Shown here: piece after piece, positions 6,554-54,864 of the stretch | How positions within the stretch are numbered: position 1 is the stretch's first letter | Layout: the number at the start of each line of letters is the position of its first letter | Assembly (NCBI GenBank): GCA_902525735.1 | Contig: CABZIF010000001.1 | Span: 66,813 to 130,812 of the forward strand | Direction of reading: 5' to 3' | DNA: 64,000 nucleotides | Source of the DNA: an uncultured SAR86 cluster bacterium | GTDB lineage: Bacteria > Pseudomonadota > Gammaproteobacteria > Magnimaribacterales > AG-339-G14 | Notes under the pieces: generated by a model | The model's input: the letters and a program-made list of their open reading frames with translations, nothing else | Database searches by the model: none | Told to the model about the DNA's origin: nothing | Program-made: the position numbers and the translations under genes

Positions 6554-6628
6554 GTCCCCTTCGTCTAGCGGTTAGGACACCGGGTTTTCATCTCGGCAAC
6601 AGGGGTTCGATCCCCCTAGGGGACGCCA
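6554..6628 (+). tRNA. tRNA-Glu (anticodon UUC)
   Basis: The acceptor GTCCCCT pairs with AGGGGAC, followed by G-CCA. The anticodon loop is TTTTCAT and the T-arm is GGGGTTCGATCCCC. Confidence 0.9.
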
Positions 6629-6774: not shown

Positions 6775-7131
6775 GTGAAGCTTGTTTATATTGTTGTTAG
6801 ACCATCAAAAGTGGAAGTCGTGAAAAGCGCTTTAGCTGCAATAAATATTGGTGGAGCAACTTTATTTGACGTTAGAGGTTTTGGGGCTTCCAGAGGACAT
6901 ACAAGTTCTTACAGAGGTTCACAATACGTAACTGATACTAATCCAAAGGGCATGCTAATGGTAGCGTGCAAAGATGATGATGTTCCTAACATCATTCAGG
7001 CTGTTCGTGACGTGGCTAATACCGGATCTATAGGTGATGGAAAAATCTTCGTCAACGAACTTTCAGATGTAATCCGCATCCGAACTGGAGAATCTGGCGA
7101 AGATGCAATAATGGAGAAAAATAATGACTGA
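6775..7131 (+). CDS. glnK: Nitrogen regulatory protein P-II (GlnK)
   Basis: It has a GTG start after GGAGG. The T-loop GFGASRGHTSSYRGSQY keeps the Tyr at the uridylylation position. It carries the C-terminal block GDGKIFV...IRIRTGE. Its stop overlaps the amtB start (ATGACTGA). Confidence 0.85.
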   Translation: MKLVYIVVRPSKVEVVKSALAAINIGGATLFDVRGFGASRGHTSSYRGSQYVTDTNPKGMLMVACKDDDVPNIIQAVRDVANTGSIGDGKIFVNELSDVIRIRTGESGEDAIMEKNND

Positions 7132-8350
7132 GATGGAATTTGCACTAAATACGTTTTATTTAGTACTTTCTGGGGCTTTTGTTATGTGGATGGCAGCTGG
7201 TTTCACAATGTTGGAAGCTGGACTTGTGCGTTCTAAAAACGTTTCAGAAATTGTAACCAAAAATTTAGGTCTATATTCAATTGCATGCGTAATGTATTTG
7301 GCATGTGGTTTTTATTTAATGTACCCAGGTGATGATGTTATTAACGCATACTTGCCAGGTATGGGTACTACTTGGGGTATTAGCTTAGCTGGTTTAACTG
7401 CAAACTATGATTTGGGTTATTCCGATGCTGCTGATTTCTTTTTCCAGGTTGTTTTCGTTGCTACTGCAATGTCAATTGTCTCTGGAGCTGTAGCTGAAAG
7501 AATGAGACTAGTACCGTTTTTTTTATTCGCAGTTGTTATGACTGGATTTATCTACCCTGTTCAAGGTTATTGGAAATGGGGTGGTGGTTGGTTAGACGCT
7601 ATCGGCTATACCGACTTTGCGGGATCTGGAGTAGTTCACTTATGTGGAGCTTCGGCCGCATTAGCAGCTGTTTTAATACTTGGAGCCAGATCAGGCAAGT
7701 ATGGTTCAGATGGATCAGTTACTGTCATGAGAGGATCAAACATTCCAATCGCTGCCTTAGGTGCTTTTATTCTTTGGTTAGGTTGGTTTGGATTTAATGG
7801 CGGATCTCAATTGGCTGTTCACACCGTGGACAATGCCAATGCTGTCGCCCAAGTTTTCCTTAACACAAATGCAGCAGCAGCTGGTGGTGTTTTAGGAGCA
7901 ATTATTATTTCAAAAATATTAACAGGAAAAATGGATGTTACTATGGGAATTAACGGAGCGATTGCAGGTTTAGTTGCAATTACAGCTGCTCCTGACACTC
8001 CCTCTGGCGGACTTGCTACTATCATTGGTCTGATCGGTGGTGTAATTGTATATTTTTCAGTCGTATTCTTTGACTCAGTACTTAAAGTAGATGACCCAGT
8101 TGGGGCAATATCTGCTCACGGTACGGTAGGTGTTTGGGGAATTATGGCAACTCCTTTATCTGGAGCTGGTGCATTCGGCACGCAAGCAATTGGAGCTGTC
8201 TCTATATTCCTTTGGACTTTTATAACTGCAGGAGCAACTCTTCTCGTCATTAAAGCCATCATGGGGCTTCGTCCTACAATGGAAGACGAAATGGAAGGTA
8301 TGGATGCTTCGGAAGTTGGAGTTTCAGCTTACCCAGAGTTTTCAGAGTAA
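7124..8350 (+). CDS. amtB: Ammonium transporter AmtB
   Basis: It is a 408-aa polytopic protein with Amt signatures (DFAGSGVVHLCGASAALAA, WFGFNGGS, AISAHGTVGVWG). It is translationally coupled to glnK. Confidence 0.9.
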   Translation: MTEMEFALNTFYLVLSGAFVMWMAAGFTMLEAGLVRSKNVSEIVTKNLGLYSIACVMYLACGFYLMYPGDDVINAYLPGMGTTWGISLAGLTANYDLGYSDAADFFFQVVFVATAMSIVSGAVAERMRLVPFFLFAVVMTGFIYPVQGYWKWGGGWLDAIGYTDFAGSGVVHLCGASAALAAVLILGARSGKYGSDGSVTVMRGSNIPIAALGAFILWLGWFGFNGGSQLAVHTVDNANAVAQVFLNTNAAAAGGVLGAIIISKILTGKMDVTMGINGAIAGLVAITAAPDTPSGGLATIIGLIGGVIVYFSVVFFDSVLKVDDPVGAISAHGTVGVWGIMATPLSGAGAFGTQAIGAVSIFLWTFITAGATLLVIKAIMGLRPTMEDEMEGMDASEVGVSAYPEFSE

Positions 8351-8401: not shown

Positions 8402-8430
8402 AAAAAAAGGGAGACTGTGTCTCCCTTTTT
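8402..8430 (-). terminator. Intrinsic terminator after the YRG-repeat gene (hairpin usable in both directions)
   Basis: The hairpin GGGAGAC-TGT-GTCTCCC is flanked by an A-run (8402-8408) and a T-run (8426-8430). On the minus strand the stem is followed by TTTTTTT. Confidence 0.65.
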
Positions 8431-8444
8431 CAAGCCATTAATAA

Positions 8445-8609
8445 TTAAGCTACGTGTTTAACACCACGGTAAATTCCTTTACCTGACGTGTTAGACTTTT
8501 CACTTTTAACAGCATCGTGCTTTATACCTCTGTAAATACCAGCTTTAGGAGATTTTTCATCTCTAGCGACATTTTCAGGAGTAACTTTGATACCTCTATA
8601 AGTAGTCAT
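8445..8609 (-). CDS. 54-aa lysine-rich protein with three YRG repeats (DUF4278-like by memory)
   Basis: The track ORF 8445..8660 is trimmed to the ATG at 8609, which lies 7 nt after GGAGG. The product is MTTYRGIKVTPENVARDEKSPKAGIYRGIKHDAVKSEKSNTSGKGIYRGVKHVA. It has its own promoter, leader and terminator. Confidence 0.6.
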   Translation of the reverse strand: MTTYRGIKVTPENVARDEKSPKAGIYRGIKHDAVKSEKSNTSGKGIYRGVKHVA

Positions 8610-8671
8610 ATCGTGCCTCCAGTTTTCGTTTCGATTTCGTACATGCACCCTAAGATGCACACCCTTCTCAA

Positions 8672-8801
8672 CGCGTTCCTTCGGTAGATATTCGGTCTCG
8701 TTCCCTTATCGGTACTTGCTAGCCTTTCTTTAAAAAAAGAAAGAGGTTTTCCTATCTTCCTACTTCCGTTCCTTGCATTAAAATAATGCAGGGAATGAAC
8801 G
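8672..8801 (-). promoter_or_regulatory. Candidate glutamine riboswitch aptamer (glnA RNA / glutamine-I class) with enlarged P2
   Basis: The minus-strand RNA reads CGUUCA-[hairpin UUCCCUGCAUUA/UAAUGCAAGGAA]-ACGGAAGUAGG-[about 74 nt]-CCGAAGGAACGCG. CGUUC can pair with GAACG to form P1. The element starts about 5 nt after the predicted TSS. Confidence 0.65.
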
Positions 8802-8812
8802 ATTACAGTGCA

Positions 8813-8841
8813 ATTATAGAGTTAAGAGCTTTTTTTTACAA
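8813..8841 (-). promoter_or_regulatory. Sigma70-type promoter for the riboswitch/YRG transcript
   Basis: The minus strand reads TTGTAA (8841-8836), a 17-nt spacer, then TATAAT (8818-8813). The predicted TSS is near 8806. Confidence 0.5.
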
Positions 8842-53660: not shown

Positions 53661-53846
53661 ATAACTTAGTGGGAAGCTTAACAACTCGAGACGGAAAGAA
53701 AGAAGCTAAGGAGCAGAAGAAGAAGGGTGAGAAGACGAAAGAAATTTCGCCACATGCAGGGAAAGGGTAACTCGCCTGCACTAGATAACCCGCTAGACCC
53801 CTTCAACTTCGATAAATAAAACACCACTTTGTGGTGTTTTTTTTTA
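53661..53846 (+). ncRNA. Candidate ~185-nt small RNA or trpS leader (purine-rich, terminator-bounded)
   Basis: It is bounded by the promoter above and a strong terminator. It contains a 57-nt tract (53688-53744) with only 6 pyrimidines, several GGA/GGG motifs and a 6-bp hairpin TGCAGG/CCTGCA (53755-53780). Confidence 0.4.
53818..53846 (+). terminator. Intrinsic terminator 11 nt upstream of trpS ATG
   Basis: The hairpin ACACCAC-TTT-GTGGTGT is followed by a T-run of about 9. Confidence 0.8.
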
Positions 53847-53856
53847 TACTAAACCC

Positions 53857-54864
53857 ATGTCCTCCATTTTAACTGGCATAACAACTAGCGGTTCTCCACA
53901 TTTAGGTAATTATGTGGGAGCTATAAAACCTTCCCTTGATAAAATAAAAGAATCAAAAAAATCTTTTTTATTTTTAGCCGACTATCATTCATTAATTAAA
54001 CAGCAAGATCCTTTACTTACTCATAAGTCTAGTTTGGAAATTGCTTCTGCTTGGATGGCTTGTGGCTTAAATCCTAGAGAAACTTGTTTTTACAGACAAT
54101 CAAAAATCCCTCAAATTATGGAATTGAATTGGATCTTATCCAATGCAACATCAAAAGGACTTCTCAATAGAGCGCATGCTTACAAAGCTGCCCAGGATTT
54201 AAATTCGAAAAAAAAAGTAAAAGACCTAGATAATGGTATAACGGCTAGTTTATTTAATTATCCAGTACTGATGGCTGCCGATATTTTAATATTTGATACT
54301 GATATTGTCCCAGTAGGAAGTGATCAAAAGCAACACATTGAAATGACCAGAGACATTGCTGCACGATTTAATCATTTATATGGAGAAACTTTTAAAATTC
54401 CAGAAGCATATATTTCTAAAAATATACCTCTCTTGTTAGGAACAGATGGAAGAAAGATGAGCAAATCATATAAAAACTCTATCGAACTATTTTCTGAAGA
54501 AAAAGCTTTAAAGAAATCTCTAAATCAAATCGTTACTGATTCTCTTATGCCCGGAGAGCCAAAGGAAACAAAAAATTCAGTTTTGTATAATTTTTTTCAA
54601 GCATTTGCTACTGAATCGTATTTAAAAGAAGTAAATATAATGTTTTCCGATGGTAAAGGTTGGGGTGAATTAAAATCTGATCTCTTCAATTTAATCAATA
54701 CTGAATTGAAAGACTCAAGAGAAAAGTACTTTTATTTCCTTAGCAATGCTGACGAGGTTGAAGATATTTTAAAAAAAGGGGAAATTCAAGCTTCGCTCCT
54801 TGCAGAAAAAAAACTTATTGATGTAAGAAACAAAATAGGAATAAAGCCTTTAGATGAAAAATAA
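53857..54864 (+). CDS. trpS: Tryptophanyl-tRNA synthetase
   Basis: It carries the class I motifs GSPHLGNYVGA (HIGH) and KMSKS (RKMSKSYKN), plus the GSDQKQHIE block. Confidence 0.9.
   Translation: MSSILTGITTSGSPHLGNYVGAIKPSLDKIKESKKSFLFLADYHSLIKQQDPLLTHKSSLEIASAWMACGLNPRETCFYRQSKIPQIMELNWILSNATSKGLLNRAHAYKAAQDLNSKKKVKDLDNGITASLFNYPVLMAADILIFDTDIVPVGSDQKQHIEMTRDIAARFNHLYGETFKIPEAYISKNIPLLLGTDGRKMSKSYKNSIELFSEEKALKKSLNQIVTDSLMPGEPKETKNSVLYNFFQAFATESYLKEVNIMFSDGKGWGELKSDLFNLINTELKDSREKYFYFLSNADEVEDILKKGEIQASLLAEKKLIDVRNKIGIKPLDEK

What the first reader, a model, noticed from the sequence alone, without database searches (positions are those of the whole stretch)
8610..8841. Glutamine-riboswitch look-alike in a non-cyanobacterial genome, convergent on glnK-amtB
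A near-consensus promoter lies on the minus strand: TTGTAA, 17 nt, TATAAT. About 5 nt after its predicted TSS the RNA reads CGUUCA, then a hairpin (UUCCCUGCAUUA / UAAUGCAAGGAA, one mismatch), then ACGGAAGUAGG, then an internal arm, then CCGAAGGAACGCG. From memory these are the three conserved blocks of the glnA RNA (glutamine-I) riboswitch, in the right order. CGUUC and GAACG are positioned to form P1. About 60 nt further on comes an A-rich tract (CGAAAUCGAAACGAAAAC), then GGAGG, then the ATG of a tiny YRG-repeat ORF. The whole unit faces the 3-prime end of glnK-amtB, so it sits in a nitrogen-assimilation locus. As far as I know this riboswitch class has been described in cyanobacteria, cyanophage and unassigned marine metagenomic DNA. 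Here the flanking genes point to a heterotrophic proteobacterium (lolCDE, msbA, exbBD, a TonB receptor, proteorhodopsin, secDF). The host assignment and the regulated gene would therefore both be noteworthy.
Basis: partly seen in the sequence, partly recalled or inferred. Interest (0 to 1): 0.8.

Follow-up and report, generated by a model that had tools for sequence, protein, structure and literature searches.

The report
Glutamine riboswitch variant in SAR86
The sequence is a real glutamine-sensing riboswitch sitting in front of a tiny 54-residue protein gene in SAR86, an abundant non-photosynthetic ocean bacterium; the same RNA-plus-gene unit also occurs in marine T4-like phages, so this cyanobacterial-style nitrogen sensor reaches beyond cyanobacteria.

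Summary
Window 8670-8803 (minus strand) matches Rfam RF01739, the glutamine-I (glnA RNA) riboswitch, at 42.3 bits against a threshold of 35. A covariance model built only from phage copies finds it at 96.8 bits.

- **Host.** The host is SAR86. The same element occurs in 43 species-level genomes titled SAR86, 5 other gammaproteobacterial genomes and at least 120 viral contigs.
- **Structure.** In 74 distinct copies, helices P1a and P2 covary. P1 is complementary but never varies.
- **Regulated gene.** The downstream ORF encodes 54 residues with three YRG repeats. It belongs to DUF4278, the usual cyanobacterial target and the N-terminal part of the glutamine-synthetase inactivating factor IF17. 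The target is therefore the ordinary one in a new host.
- **New anatomy.** I found two features undescribed in the papers searched. One is a conserved 74-nt three-way junction replacing the short P2 loop. The other is a covarying helix, P3, that links the aptamer's 3' end to the Shine-Dalgarno region.
- **Locus.** The position next to glnK-amtB is real here, but the unit sits in at least four genomic places among SAR86 genomes.
- **Prior reports.** Earlier papers mention RF01739 in SAR86 assemblies and in phages of heterotrophs only briefly.

Ligand binding and the direction of control are inferred, not shown. Verdict: a new variant of a known kind, of moderate interest.

The parts
8813..8841 (-). 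Sigma-70-type promoter: -35 TTGTAA (8841-8836), 17-nt spacer, -10 TATAAT (8818-8813). The predicted start lies about 3-6 nt before the aptamer.
   Evidence: One search gives 10 of 12 consensus matches. A -10 hexamer ends a fixed 7-11 nt upstream of NNCGTTCA, and 33 of 47 distinct genomic (SAR86-type) upstream regions reach at least 9 of 12 matches, even though the unit sits at different loci.
8670..8803 (-). Glutamine-I (glnA RNA) aptamer, 134 nt. P1 pairs 8801-8797 with 8678-8674. P1a is the hairpin 8795-8769. The cores are CGGAAGUA (8768-8761) and GAAGGAACG (8682-8674).
   Evidence: RF01739 scores 42.3 bits against a threshold of 35. Model R1 scores 96.8 bits. Covariation in 74 distinct sequences gives 97.0% paired cells against 83.1% in shuffles, with 0 of 500 shuffles as high.
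8683..8760 (-). Extended P2 with a three-way junction. The P2 strands are 8760-8751 and 8691-8683. The joining strands are AAAACCUC (8750-8743), AGCAAGUA (8720-8713) and GAACGAGACCGA (8703-8692). The hairpins are P2b (8744-8723) and P2c (8712-8704).
   Evidence: Rfam aligns this stretch as a 74-nt insertion where the consensus has 6 nt. P2 covaries at 6 of 6 pairs, P2b at 2 of 4 in the model alignment plus its inner pairs, and P2c at 3 of 3. Alone it matches no Rfam family.
8627..8673 (-). Expression platform. Helix P3 pairs CGUU (8673-8670) with AACG (8630-8627). It encloses conserved GAGAAGGGUGU (8669-8659), hairpin P4 (8660-8654 with 8649-8643) and GUACGAAAUCGA.
   Evidence: For P3, matched strand pairs average -2.49 kcal/mol and mismatched pairs -0.71, with 0 of 1000 permutations as low. 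Variants include CGUU/AACG, CUA/UAG, CAU/AUG, CUUU/AAAG and CAUUGG/CCAAUG. P4 pairs change on both sides.
8616..8620 (-). Shine-Dalgarno GGAGG, 6 nt after P3 and 6 nt before the ATG. It is preceded by conserved GAAAACU.
   Evidence: Searches show GGAG present in all but a few platform variants.
8445..8609 (-). ORF of 54 residues with three YRG(I/V)K repeats, DUF4278-like; the stop codon is included.
   Evidence: A YRG ORF follows 182 of 189 pattern matches. Substitutions by codon position 1/2/3 number 1035/639/1774. AlphaFold2 predicts three short beta-hairpins at the YRG motifs, with pLDDT 70.9 and pTM 0.22.
8403..8431 (.). Two-way intrinsic terminator shared with amtB. A 13-bp stem AAAAAGGGAGAC/GUCUCCCUUUUU is flanked by A and U runs.
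   Evidence: One search gives dG -17.8 kcal/mol and z -4.49. One search shows partial matches to the terminator hairpins of sRNA models.

Best explanation
The region is a self-contained regulatory unit in a SAR86 genome. It consists of its own sigma-70 promoter, a glutamine-I class riboswitch, a 54-residue DUF4278-type small-protein gene and a terminator.

**What is shown**
- The aptamer keeps the complete conserved core of the class: P1, P1a, CGGAAGUA and GAAGGAACG.
- Its P2 is enlarged into a conserved three-way junction.
- Its 3' end runs directly into helix P3, which brings the Shine-Dalgarno sequence to within 6 nt of the aptamer.
- The same unit is carried by marine T4-like myophages just after the major capsid gene, often behind a T4-type late promoter. 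This points to exchange between phage and host.

**What is inferred**
- L-glutamine is the ligand.
- Glutamine binding closes P1, probably stacked on P3. That prevents aptamer strands from pairing with the ribosome-binding region, so translation rises when glutamine is high. This is the ON behaviour measured for the cyanobacterial gifB riboswitch.
- By analogy with IF17-like proteins, the small protein then damps nitrogen assimilation, for example glutamine synthetase activity.
For: **Class membership and structure**
- RF01739 scores above its gathering score.
- Independent model R1, built from 19 phage sequences without the window, scores the window at 96.8 bits and all 48 gammaproteobacterial genome loci (43 of them titled SAR86) at 87-106 bits. 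It misses the one chance pattern hit, L041.
- In covariation counts, 15 of 22 pairs change on both sides. The score is 0.413 against 0.151 in shuffles, with 0 of 500 shuffles as high, and sliding partners by 1-3 columns drops pairing to 61% or less. Anchored counts of my own agree.
- P3 covaries.

**Gene association**
- A YRG ORF follows 182 of 189 pattern matches.
- All 31 family members match DUF4278, best E 4.6e-9.
- Substitutions concentrate at third codon positions.

**Distribution**
- The pattern hits 43 genomes titled SAR86 and 5 other gammaproteobacterial genomes out of 185,579 species genomes, and none titled as cyanobacterial.
- It hits at least 120 viral contigs.
- Phage copies lie next to gp23, UvsY and UvsW.
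- The window and phage copies are 79-81% identical over about 270 nt.
- TATAAATA lies upstream of 41 of 77 phage copies and 0 of 47 genomic copies.

**Direction of control**
- In a folding model, the Shine-Dalgarno sequence is unpaired with mean probability 0.83 when P1 is enforced and 0.53 when P1 is blocked (33 representatives, Wilcoxon p 4e-8).
- Klahn 2018 (PMC6212724) measured ON switching of gifB by glutamine.
- SAR86 genomes carry glnA, gltB and amtB (PMC11582366).
Against: - No binding or expression experiment exists for this variant.
- P1 and the core blocks never vary, partly because my search pattern and parser required them. They therefore give no covariation signal.
- The CM-made alignment leans towards the model's structure.
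- The Shine-Dalgarno accessibility result is partly built in: enforcing P1 forbids any pairing between the aptamer interior and the Shine-Dalgarno sequence. For the window's own lineage the effect is small (0.78 to 0.90).
- No consistent anti-Shine-Dalgarno partner emerged.
- The window's own peptide is below Pfam's DUF4278 cut-off (21.3 against 25.3 bits).
- The peptide lacks the C-terminal IF7-like part that binds glutamine synthetase in IF17 (PMC6212724), so its target is unknown.
Confidence: 0.8

Rival explanations
1. The unit is a leftover piece of phage DNA in SAR86. It looks like a riboswitch but has no role in the host.
For: - The window is 79-81% identical in nucleotides to the same unit on T4-like phage contigs.
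- The unit occupies at least four insertion sites among SAR86 genomes.
- The contexts are unrelated genes such as a HAD hydrolase, a methyltransferase and acpS.
Against: - It is present in 43 species-level genomes titled SAR86.
- The phage late promoter is absent from all 47 genomic copies. A sigma-70 -10 element sits at a fixed distance instead.
- Helices are kept through compensatory changes.
- The ORF shows a third-codon-position bias.
Confidence: 0.07
2. The aptamer is real but works as an OFF switch, or acts on RNA stability or Rho termination rather than on ribosome access.
For: - No robust anti-Shine-Dalgarno pairing is predicted.
- CCUC in the junction can pair with GGAGG, and its U is invariant although it forms only a U.G pair in P2b. 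That could reflect a ligand-dependent pseudoknot that hides the Shine-Dalgarno sequence. My recollection is that the glutamine-II structure paper (PMC6698751, listed but not read here) proposes this for that class.
- A long, conserved, A-rich single strand lies before the Shine-Dalgarno sequence.
Against: - The only measured members of the class are ON switches (PMC6212724).
- P2b is stable by itself, so its UC is probably always paired.
- No terminator-like hairpin with a U run lies between the aptamer and the ORF.
Confidence: 0.2
3. The conserved three-way junction changes or adds to what is sensed. It might bind a second ligand or a protein, or sit as a second aptamer nested inside P2.
For: - The joining strands GAAAACCUC, AGCNAGUA and GAACGAGACCGA are invariant or nearly so in the copies found through the peptide search, where the search pattern did not impose them.
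- In the pattern-derived copies AAACCUC and GAGACCGA were required, so their invariance there is not informative.
- They loosely resemble the aptamer's own blocks.
- No published description of this junction was found.
Against: - The insertion alone matches no glutamine model or any other Rfam family.
- The glutamine core is intact, which argues for the same primary ligand.
- Peripheral elaborations of riboswitch helices often only stabilise the fold.
Confidence: 0.15
4. The unit controls glnK-amtB through convergent transcription or antisense effects.
For: - In the window the ORF ends 95 nt from the amtB stop codon.
- In about 29 of 48 loci the unit lies within roughly 3 kb of glnK-amtB, including a Halieaceae assembly.
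Against: - A strong two-way terminator separates the two genes.
- In 13 loci the unit is on the other side of the cluster, beside the inositol monophosphatase gene.
- In about 17 loci no glnK or amtB lies in the 8 kb held.
- Phage copies have no amtB neighbour.
Confidence: 0.03

Closest known systems
Glutamine-I riboswitch (glnA RNA, Rfam RF01739) of cyanobacteria, e.g. the Synechocystis gifB leader (Klahn et al. 2018, PMC6212724; Weinberg et al. 2010, PMC2864571)
   Same: - The core sequence blocks are identical.
- The P1, P1a and P2 arrangement is the same, and the score is above the gathering score.
- It sits in the 5' leader of a DUF4278 gene.
- There is no terminator, so control is probably translational.
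   Different: - The host is SAR86, a gammaproteobacterium, and marine T4-like myophages most like those of heterotrophs.
- The P2 loop (6 nt in the consensus) is replaced by a conserved 74-nt three-way junction.
- A conserved platform domain of about 60 nt is closed by helix P3.
- The ORF encodes only the DUF4278-like repeats, without IF17's C-terminal part that binds glutamine synthetase.
Glutamine-II riboswitch (Downstream-peptide motif, RF01704) of marine picocyanobacteria
   Same: - It is found upstream of short DUF4278 ORFs in marine plankton.
- It shares sequence features with glnA RNA.
   Different: - The window scores only 13 bits against a threshold of 33, and only over the 5' half.
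- The architecture is a pseudoknot rather than a P1-closed junction.
Glutamine riboswitches reported in the OM43 phage Melnitz, the pelagiphage Mosig and pelagimyophage metagenomic genomes (Buchholz et al. 2022, PMC9004378)
   Same: - It belongs to the same Rfam class.
- It occurs in T4-like phages of streamlined marine heterotrophs.
- The gp23 proteins of the phage contigs here are 61-68% identical to Melnitz and HTVC008M.
   Different: - Melnitz carries the short canonical 49-nt form without the junction (52.8 bits).
- In Melnitz it lies 3' of the tmRNA gene and is followed by an unannotated 32-residue ORF without YRG repeats.
- The authors linked it to ssrA, not to a downstream peptide.
IF17 (gifB) and IF17-like DUF4278 proteins of cyanobacteria
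   Same: - Pfam DUF4278 matches across the family.
- The genes are under glutamine-riboswitch control.
   Different: - The protein has 54 residues and three YRG repeats (35-41 residues and two repeats in some phages).
- No other domain is detected.
- Inhibition of glutamine synthetase is untested and cannot be assumed.

Membership tests
Glutamine-I riboswitch (RF01739) | Covariance-model score at or above Rfam's gathering score | tested here: met
   The window scores 42.3 bits against a threshold of 35. Related loci score 37.7-50.2 bits.
Glutamine-I riboswitch (RF01739) | Conserved core blocks AUCGUUCA, ACGGAAGUAGG and CCGAAGGAACGC in that order | tested here: met
   All blocks are present in the window. 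CGGAAGUA and GAAGGAACG are invariant in the copies found through the peptide search, where no pattern was imposed, and in the Rfam matches.
Glutamine-I riboswitch (RF01739) | P1 helix closing the aptamer (CGUUC/GAACG) | tested here: inconclusive
   P1 is complementary in 73 of 73 distinct sequences but never varies, so there is no covariation. Its invariance was partly imposed by my pattern and parser.
Glutamine-I riboswitch (RF01739) | P1a hairpin and P2 helix supported by compensatory changes | tested here: met
   P1a shows changes on both sides at 4 of 4 pairs and is 100% paired. P2 does so at 6 of 6 pairs and is 94% paired. One search agrees.
Glutamine-I riboswitch (RF01739) | E-loop and long-range tertiary pair formed on ligand binding | not testable with these tools
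   This needs structure probing or crystallography. Only the nucleotides involved are seen to be conserved.
Glutamine-I riboswitch (RF01739) | Selective binding of L-glutamine | not testable with these tools
   No experiment was possible. Binding is inferred from the intact core.
Glutamine-I riboswitch (RF01739) | Cis position in the 5' leader of a nitrogen-related or DUF4278 gene | tested here: met
   The aptamer ends 61 nt before the ATG of the YRG ORF. A YRG ORF follows 182 of 189 pattern matches.
Glutamine-II riboswitch (RF01704) | Score at or above the gathering score | tested here: not met
   The window scores 13 bits against a threshold of 33, as a partial match at 8759-8804 only.
DUF4278 (Pfam PF14105) | Pfam score at or above the curated cut-off | tested here: inconclusive
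   The window peptide scores 21.3 bits against 25.3 (E 3.4e-4). All 31 aligned family members match at E <= 0.01, best 4.6e-9. Many database relatives carry a precomputed PF14105 hit.
IF17 / GS-inactivating factor (gifB) | C-terminal IF7-like region that binds and inactivates glutamine synthetase | tested here: not met
   The protein is 54 residues and consists of the three YRG repeats. Pfam finds nothing but DUF4278, and no relative has a solved structure. Klahn 2018 notes that short DUF4278 proteins lack this region.

The most novel reading that the evidence does not exclude
SAR86, one of the most abundant heterotrophic bacterial groups of the surface ocean, and T4-like phages that may infect it, use a structurally enlarged glutamine riboswitch to switch on an IF17-like mini-protein that acts on glutamine synthetase or on GlnK/AmtB. 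The enlargement is the core aptamer plus a conserved three-way junction and the P3 platform. On this reading, control of nitrogen assimilation by an RNA sensor and an inhibitor peptide is not unique to cyanobacteria. The phages would deploy it late in infection to redirect host nitrogen, and the junction would add a second input or a docking step absent from the known class.
Probability: 0.25. Interest if true: 0.8.

Novelty: new variant of a known kind. Interest (0 to 1): 0.55.

Why it matters
Klahn et al. 2018 concluded that glutamine riboswitches occur only in cyanobacteria, apart from unassigned marine metagenome DNA, and that control of glutamine synthetase by small inhibitor proteins is unique to that phylum.

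This work assigns a large, conserved sub-family of the riboswitch, together with its DUF4278 target gene, to two new hosts. One is SAR86, with 43 species-level genomes titled SAR86. The other is T4-like myophages whose capsid genes are closest to those of phages infecting heterotrophs.

- It gives a testable route by which a streamlined heterotroph could sense its nitrogen status.
- It suggests what part of the 'marine metagenome' glnA RNAs actually is.
- The roughly 80% nucleotide identity between phage and SAR86 copies offers a possible link between uncultured myophages and SAR86, for which I know of no cultured phage.
- It supplies a natural variant, with the three-way junction and P3, for studying how peripheral domains tune a very small aptamer.

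Tried and rejected
1. **Nested second aptamer in P2.** The junction strands loosely resemble the core blocks, but the insertion alone matches no glutamine model or any other family. The idea is unsupported.
2. **A defined anti-Shine-Dalgarno sequence.** Base-pair probabilities for GGAG across 34 representatives gave no consistent partner; the P2 3' strand, CCUC, the P1 5' strand and P1a each appear in some. CCUC:GGAGG remains only a possibility.
3. **Pairing between GUAC in the junction and GUAC in the platform.** This is rejected, because variants with AAGUAGG keep the platform GUAC unchanged.
4. **Pairing of the platform GAGAAGGGUGU with the junction.** This is rejected, because a second platform type lacking this block keeps the same junction.
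5. **BLAST against cultured phages.** The window unit, a phage copy and the peptide all gave no match. Classification of the phage contigs therefore rests on gp23.
6. **MAFFT plus RNAalifold on full-length elements.** The variable P1a was misaligned, and an invariant CGG/CCG pairing was predicted that I do not trust. I replaced this with anchored parsing and a covariance-model alignment.
7. **Structure prediction of the peptide.** With pTM 0.22 it was too uncertain for a fold search.
8. **Ames & Breaker 2011.** The paper is not held in the library, so I could not check whether long-P2 variants were noted there.
Full report
**Observation.**
- The promoter TTGTAA, 17 nt, TATAAT lies at 8841-8813 and matches 10 of 12 consensus positions.
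- AUCGUUCA starts at 8803.
- A 12-bp hairpin with one C.A mismatch occupies 8795-8769.
- ACGGAAGUAGG is followed by a long internal region and then CCGAAGGAACGCG.
- An A-rich tract is followed by GGAGG at 8620-8616 and ATG at 8609.
- The ORF encodes 54 residues with three YRG(I/V)K repeats and ends at 8445.
- The ORF is convergent with glnK (6775-7131) and amtB (7124-8350), identified by Pfam. The two transcription units share a 13-bp two-way terminator at 8403-8431 (dG -17.8 kcal/mol, z -4.49).

**Is it a glutamine riboswitch?** A scan of the whole window against Rfam 15 gives one riboswitch match. It is RF01739 (Glutamine, glnA leader) at 8670-8803 on the minus strand, with 42.3 bits against a gathering score of 35.
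- The alignment covers model positions 1-53 and matches every upper-case consensus residue up to GAACGC.
- Where the consensus has a 6-nt P2 loop, the window has 74 nt.
- Glutamine-II (RF01704) reaches only 13 bits against a threshold of 33.

**Host.** The window's AmtB protein is encoded, residue for residue, on GCA_902523885.1 contig CABZAV010000002.1 and on several ocean metagenome contigs with the same gene order. The genome scan names that contig 'uncultured SAR86 cluster bacterium AG-337-B16'.

I scanned 185,579 species-representative genomes with a pattern taken from the insertion, AAACCTC-N30-60-GAGACCGA-N7-13-GAAGGAACG. It hit 49 genomes:
- 43 are titled SAR86.
- 5 are other gammaproteobacterial assemblies, including a Halieaceae assembly.
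- 1 is a Lachnospiraceae hit that lacks the rest of the motif. The covariance model later rejected it.
- None is titled as a cyanobacterium.

**The downstream gene.** The peptide has 39 relatives at E <= 0.01 in the 5.8-billion-protein collection, and 327 at E <= 0.001 when searched as a profile. All of those listed come from marine metagenome or ocean survey sources.
- The window peptide itself is just under Pfam's DUF4278 cut-off (21.3 against 25.3 bits).
- All 31 aligned family members match DUF4278 at E <= 0.01, best 4.6e-9.
- Klahn et al. 2018 (PMC6212724) report that DUF4278 is the N-terminal part of the glutamine-synthetase inactivating factor IF17. They also report that glnA and Downstream-peptide aptamers in cyanobacteria sit mainly in front of DUF4278 genes.
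- The regulated gene is therefore the class's usual target, not a new one.
- Among close ORF pairs, substitutions fall 1035, 639 and 1774 at codon positions 1, 2 and 3. That pattern fits a translated gene.
- ORFs come in a three-repeat form (52-59 residues) and a two-repeat form (35-41 residues).
- AlphaFold2 gives three short beta-hairpins centred on the YRG motifs with floppy linkers (pLDDT 70.9, pTM 0.22). No solved structure is related by sequence.

**Phage connection.** The contigs that encode peptide relatives are T4-like myophage genomes. The gene lies just after the major capsid gene gp23, near the prohead protease, UvsY and UvsW. Some contigs also carry ribosomal protein S21 and Fe-S/NifU genes.
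- Every one of these loci scanned has an RF01739 match of 44.8-50.2 bits and 118-138 nt in front of the ORF.
- The gp23 proteins are closest (61-68%) to the OM43 phage Melnitz, the pelagiphage HTVC008M and 'Phage C48C1', and then to cyanophages.
- The window unit is 79-81% identical over about 270 nt to phage copies.
- 41 of 77 distinct phage upstream regions carry the T4 late-promoter motif TATAAATA within 45 nt. None of the 47 genomic copies does.
- The genomic (SAR86-type) copies instead have a -10 hexamer ending a fixed 7-11 nt before NNCGTTCA, and 33 of 47 reach at least 9 of 12 promoter matches.
- The unit has evidently moved between phage and host and been re-wired for each.

**Structure and covariation.** I parsed 123 distinct full-length elements with sequence anchors and counted pairs from the base of each hairpin.

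| Helix | Result in anchored counts |
|---|---|
| P1a | 100% standard pairs at positions 1-4, with 3-5 pair types each |
| P2b | U.G and C-G at the base never vary; pairs 3-10 are 92-100% paired, with up to 5 standard pair types each |
| P2c | CG, GC, AU and GU types at pairs 1-2 |

Partner shuffles never reached the observed values (0 of 1000).

For an independent count I built covariance model R1 from 19 phage sequences, without the window.
- R1 finds the window at 96.8 bits (E 1.4e-22) and the Melnitz short form at 36.9 bits.
- On the resulting alignment of 74 distinct rows, 97.0% of cells pair, against 83.1% in shuffles.
- 15 of 22 pairs change on both sides.
- The covariation score is 0.413 against 0.151, with 0 of 500 shuffles as high.
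- Sliding partners by 1-3 columns drops pairing to 28-61%.
- By helix: P1 is invariant at 5 of 5 pairs, P1a covaries at 4 of 4, P2 at 6 of 6, P2b at 2 of 4 and P2c at 3 of 3.

There are three caveats. The alignment is fitted to the model. The search pattern fixed AAACCUC, GAGACCGA and GAAGGAACG. P1 gives no covariation signal.

**New anatomy.** Two features stand out.
- **Three-way junction.** P2 is extended by 6-8 pairs and opens into a three-way junction. Its arms are hairpins P2b and P2c. Its joining strands GAAAACCUC, AGCNAGUA and GAAC(A)GAGACCGA are nearly invariant, including in the copies found through the peptide search, where the pattern did not impose them. The insertion alone resembles no Rfam family.
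- **Helix P3.** The residue after P1's 3' strand starts helix P3, whose partner ends about 6 nt before the Shine-Dalgarno sequence. Its sequence changes in step: CGUU/AACG, CUA/UAG, CAU/AUG, CUUU/AAAG, CAUUGG/CCAAUG, CAUAGG/CCUAUG and CGUUUG/UAAACG. Matched strand pairs average -2.49 kcal/mol and mismatched pairs -0.71, with 0 of 1000 permutations as low.

In the commonest platform, P3 encloses conserved GAGAAGGGUGU, a covarying hairpin P4 and GUACGAAAUCGA. A second platform type and two minimal types also exist. I found no description of either feature in the papers searched. Ames & Breaker 2011 was not available.

**Mechanism.** No terminator-like hairpin lies between the aptamer and the ORF, so control of translation is the simplest reading.
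- Folding 33 representatives gives a mean unpaired probability for GGAG of 0.83 with P1 enforced, 0.53 with the P1 5' strand blocked and 0.56 unconstrained (Wilcoxon p 4e-8).
- This agrees with the ON behaviour measured for gifB (PMC6212724).
- It is partly a consequence of topology, since enforcing P1 forbids pairing between the aptamer interior and the Shine-Dalgarno sequence.
- The effect is small for the window's own lineage (0.78 to 0.90).
- No single anti-Shine-Dalgarno segment is consistently predicted.

The direction of switching is therefore an inference from analogy, and I put it at about 0.5-0.6.

**Locus.** Among the 48 gammaproteobacterial genome loci (43 titled SAR86), the unit lies in several places:
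- in the amtB/TonB-receptor gap, as in the window (about 15 loci);
- beside the inositol monophosphatase gene at the far end of the SpoU-tRNA-glnK-amtB cluster (13 loci);
- after rnc-era (7 loci);
- elsewhere (about 10 loci). One of these lies between isocitrate dehydrogenase and a 2-oxoacid:ferredoxin oxidoreductase, and another is in a Halieaceae assembly about 2 kb from amtB-glnK.

Nearness to glnK-amtB is frequent but not fixed, and a strong terminator insulates the two units. I regard the convergence as position, not regulation.

**What is already known.**
- Weinberg 2010 (PMC2864571) listed glnA RNA in cyanobacteria and marine metagenomes.
- Klahn 2018 found it only in cyanobacteria among RefSeq genomes. 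They called control of glutamine synthetase by inhibitory proteins unique to cyanobacteria, and left the taxonomy of some metagenomic copies open.
- Buchholz 2022 (PMC9004378) reported glutamine riboswitches in Melnitz, Mosig and ten pelagimyophage genomes and tied the Melnitz one to ssrA.
- I find the Melnitz element to be the short canonical form (52.8 bits). It lies after the tmRNA and 22 nt before an unannotated 32-residue ORF.
- A 2025 structural-variant study (PMC12379486) lists RF01739 inside deletions of SAR86 assemblies in passing.
- A 2024 SAR86 comparative study does not mention riboswitches but shows that glnA, gltB and amtB are core genes.

**Verdict.** This is a genuine member of the glutamine-I class in a new host group, with the usual target gene. 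It represents a large, conserved structural variant, defined by the three-way junction and the P3 platform, that is shared by SAR86 and T4-like phages. Ligand, direction of control and peptide function remain to be tested.

Noticed in passing
window 53664-53811 (+): There is a full-length IMES-5 RNA (RF02995, 128.7 bits against a threshold of 96.1). It lies 46 nt upstream of a class-I Trp/Tyr-type tRNA synthetase gene at 53857-54864 (Pfam tRNA-synt_1b, 2e-54). The position suggests this 'marine environmental' RNA may be a cis-acting leader of that gene in SAR86.
   Followed up: partly
L192 (Melnitz phage MZ577097.1) 46398-46567: The published Melnitz glutamine riboswitch is the short canonical form. 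It lies 3' of the tmRNA gene. After 22 nt and a GGGGAGAG ribosome-binding site comes an unannotated plus-strand ORF of 32 residues (MTLYQQWCYLKAQKEYRRRQKILMYFRIRLKG). That ORF overlaps an annotated minus-strand hypothetical gene. The riboswitch more likely controls this small ORF than ssrA.
   Followed up: partly
L007-L021 and L071-L190 (viral contigs): In T4-like marine myophages the riboswitch-peptide unit sits directly after gp23. In 41 of 77 distinct copies it lies behind a TATAAATA late-promoter motif. The copies are about 80% identical in DNA to the SAR86 copy. This is a possible clue to which uncultured myophages infect SAR86.
   Followed up: partly
window 8403-8431: A symmetric terminator hairpin (13-bp stem, A run on one side, U run on the other) serves both amtB on the plus strand and the small ORF on the minus strand. 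The simple terminator scan did not report it.
   Followed up: yes
L064 3692-4050: In one uncultured gammaproteobacterial assembly the unit lies between an isocitrate dehydrogenase gene and a 2-oxoacid:ferredoxin oxidoreductase gene. Isocitrate dehydrogenase makes 2-oxoglutarate, and the oxidoreductase could be 2-oxoglutarate-specific, which I did not test. 2-oxoglutarate is the other classic nitrogen-status signal. This may be coincidence.
   Followed up: no
window 8445-8660 (-) and protein P0011: The mechanical ORF can be extended upstream to a GTG inside the platform, giving 71 residues starting MHLRVHVRNRNENWRHD. Some database entries (87-98 residues) were called with such extensions. These are probably wrong starts that run through the riboswitch platform.
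   Followed up: no
P1a, P2b, P2c and P4 loops in L012-L190: Many phage copies cap these hairpins with GNRA tetraloops (GAAA, GCAA, GUAA, GUGA). The window copy has U-rich or GAUAA loops instead. This hints at tertiary contacts that differ between lineages.
   Followed up: no
window 6554-6625 (+): A tRNA gene sits between the SpoU methylase gene and glnK. This SpoU-tRNA-glnK-amtB order is kept in the ocean metagenome contigs that encode the identical AmtB.
   Followed up: no
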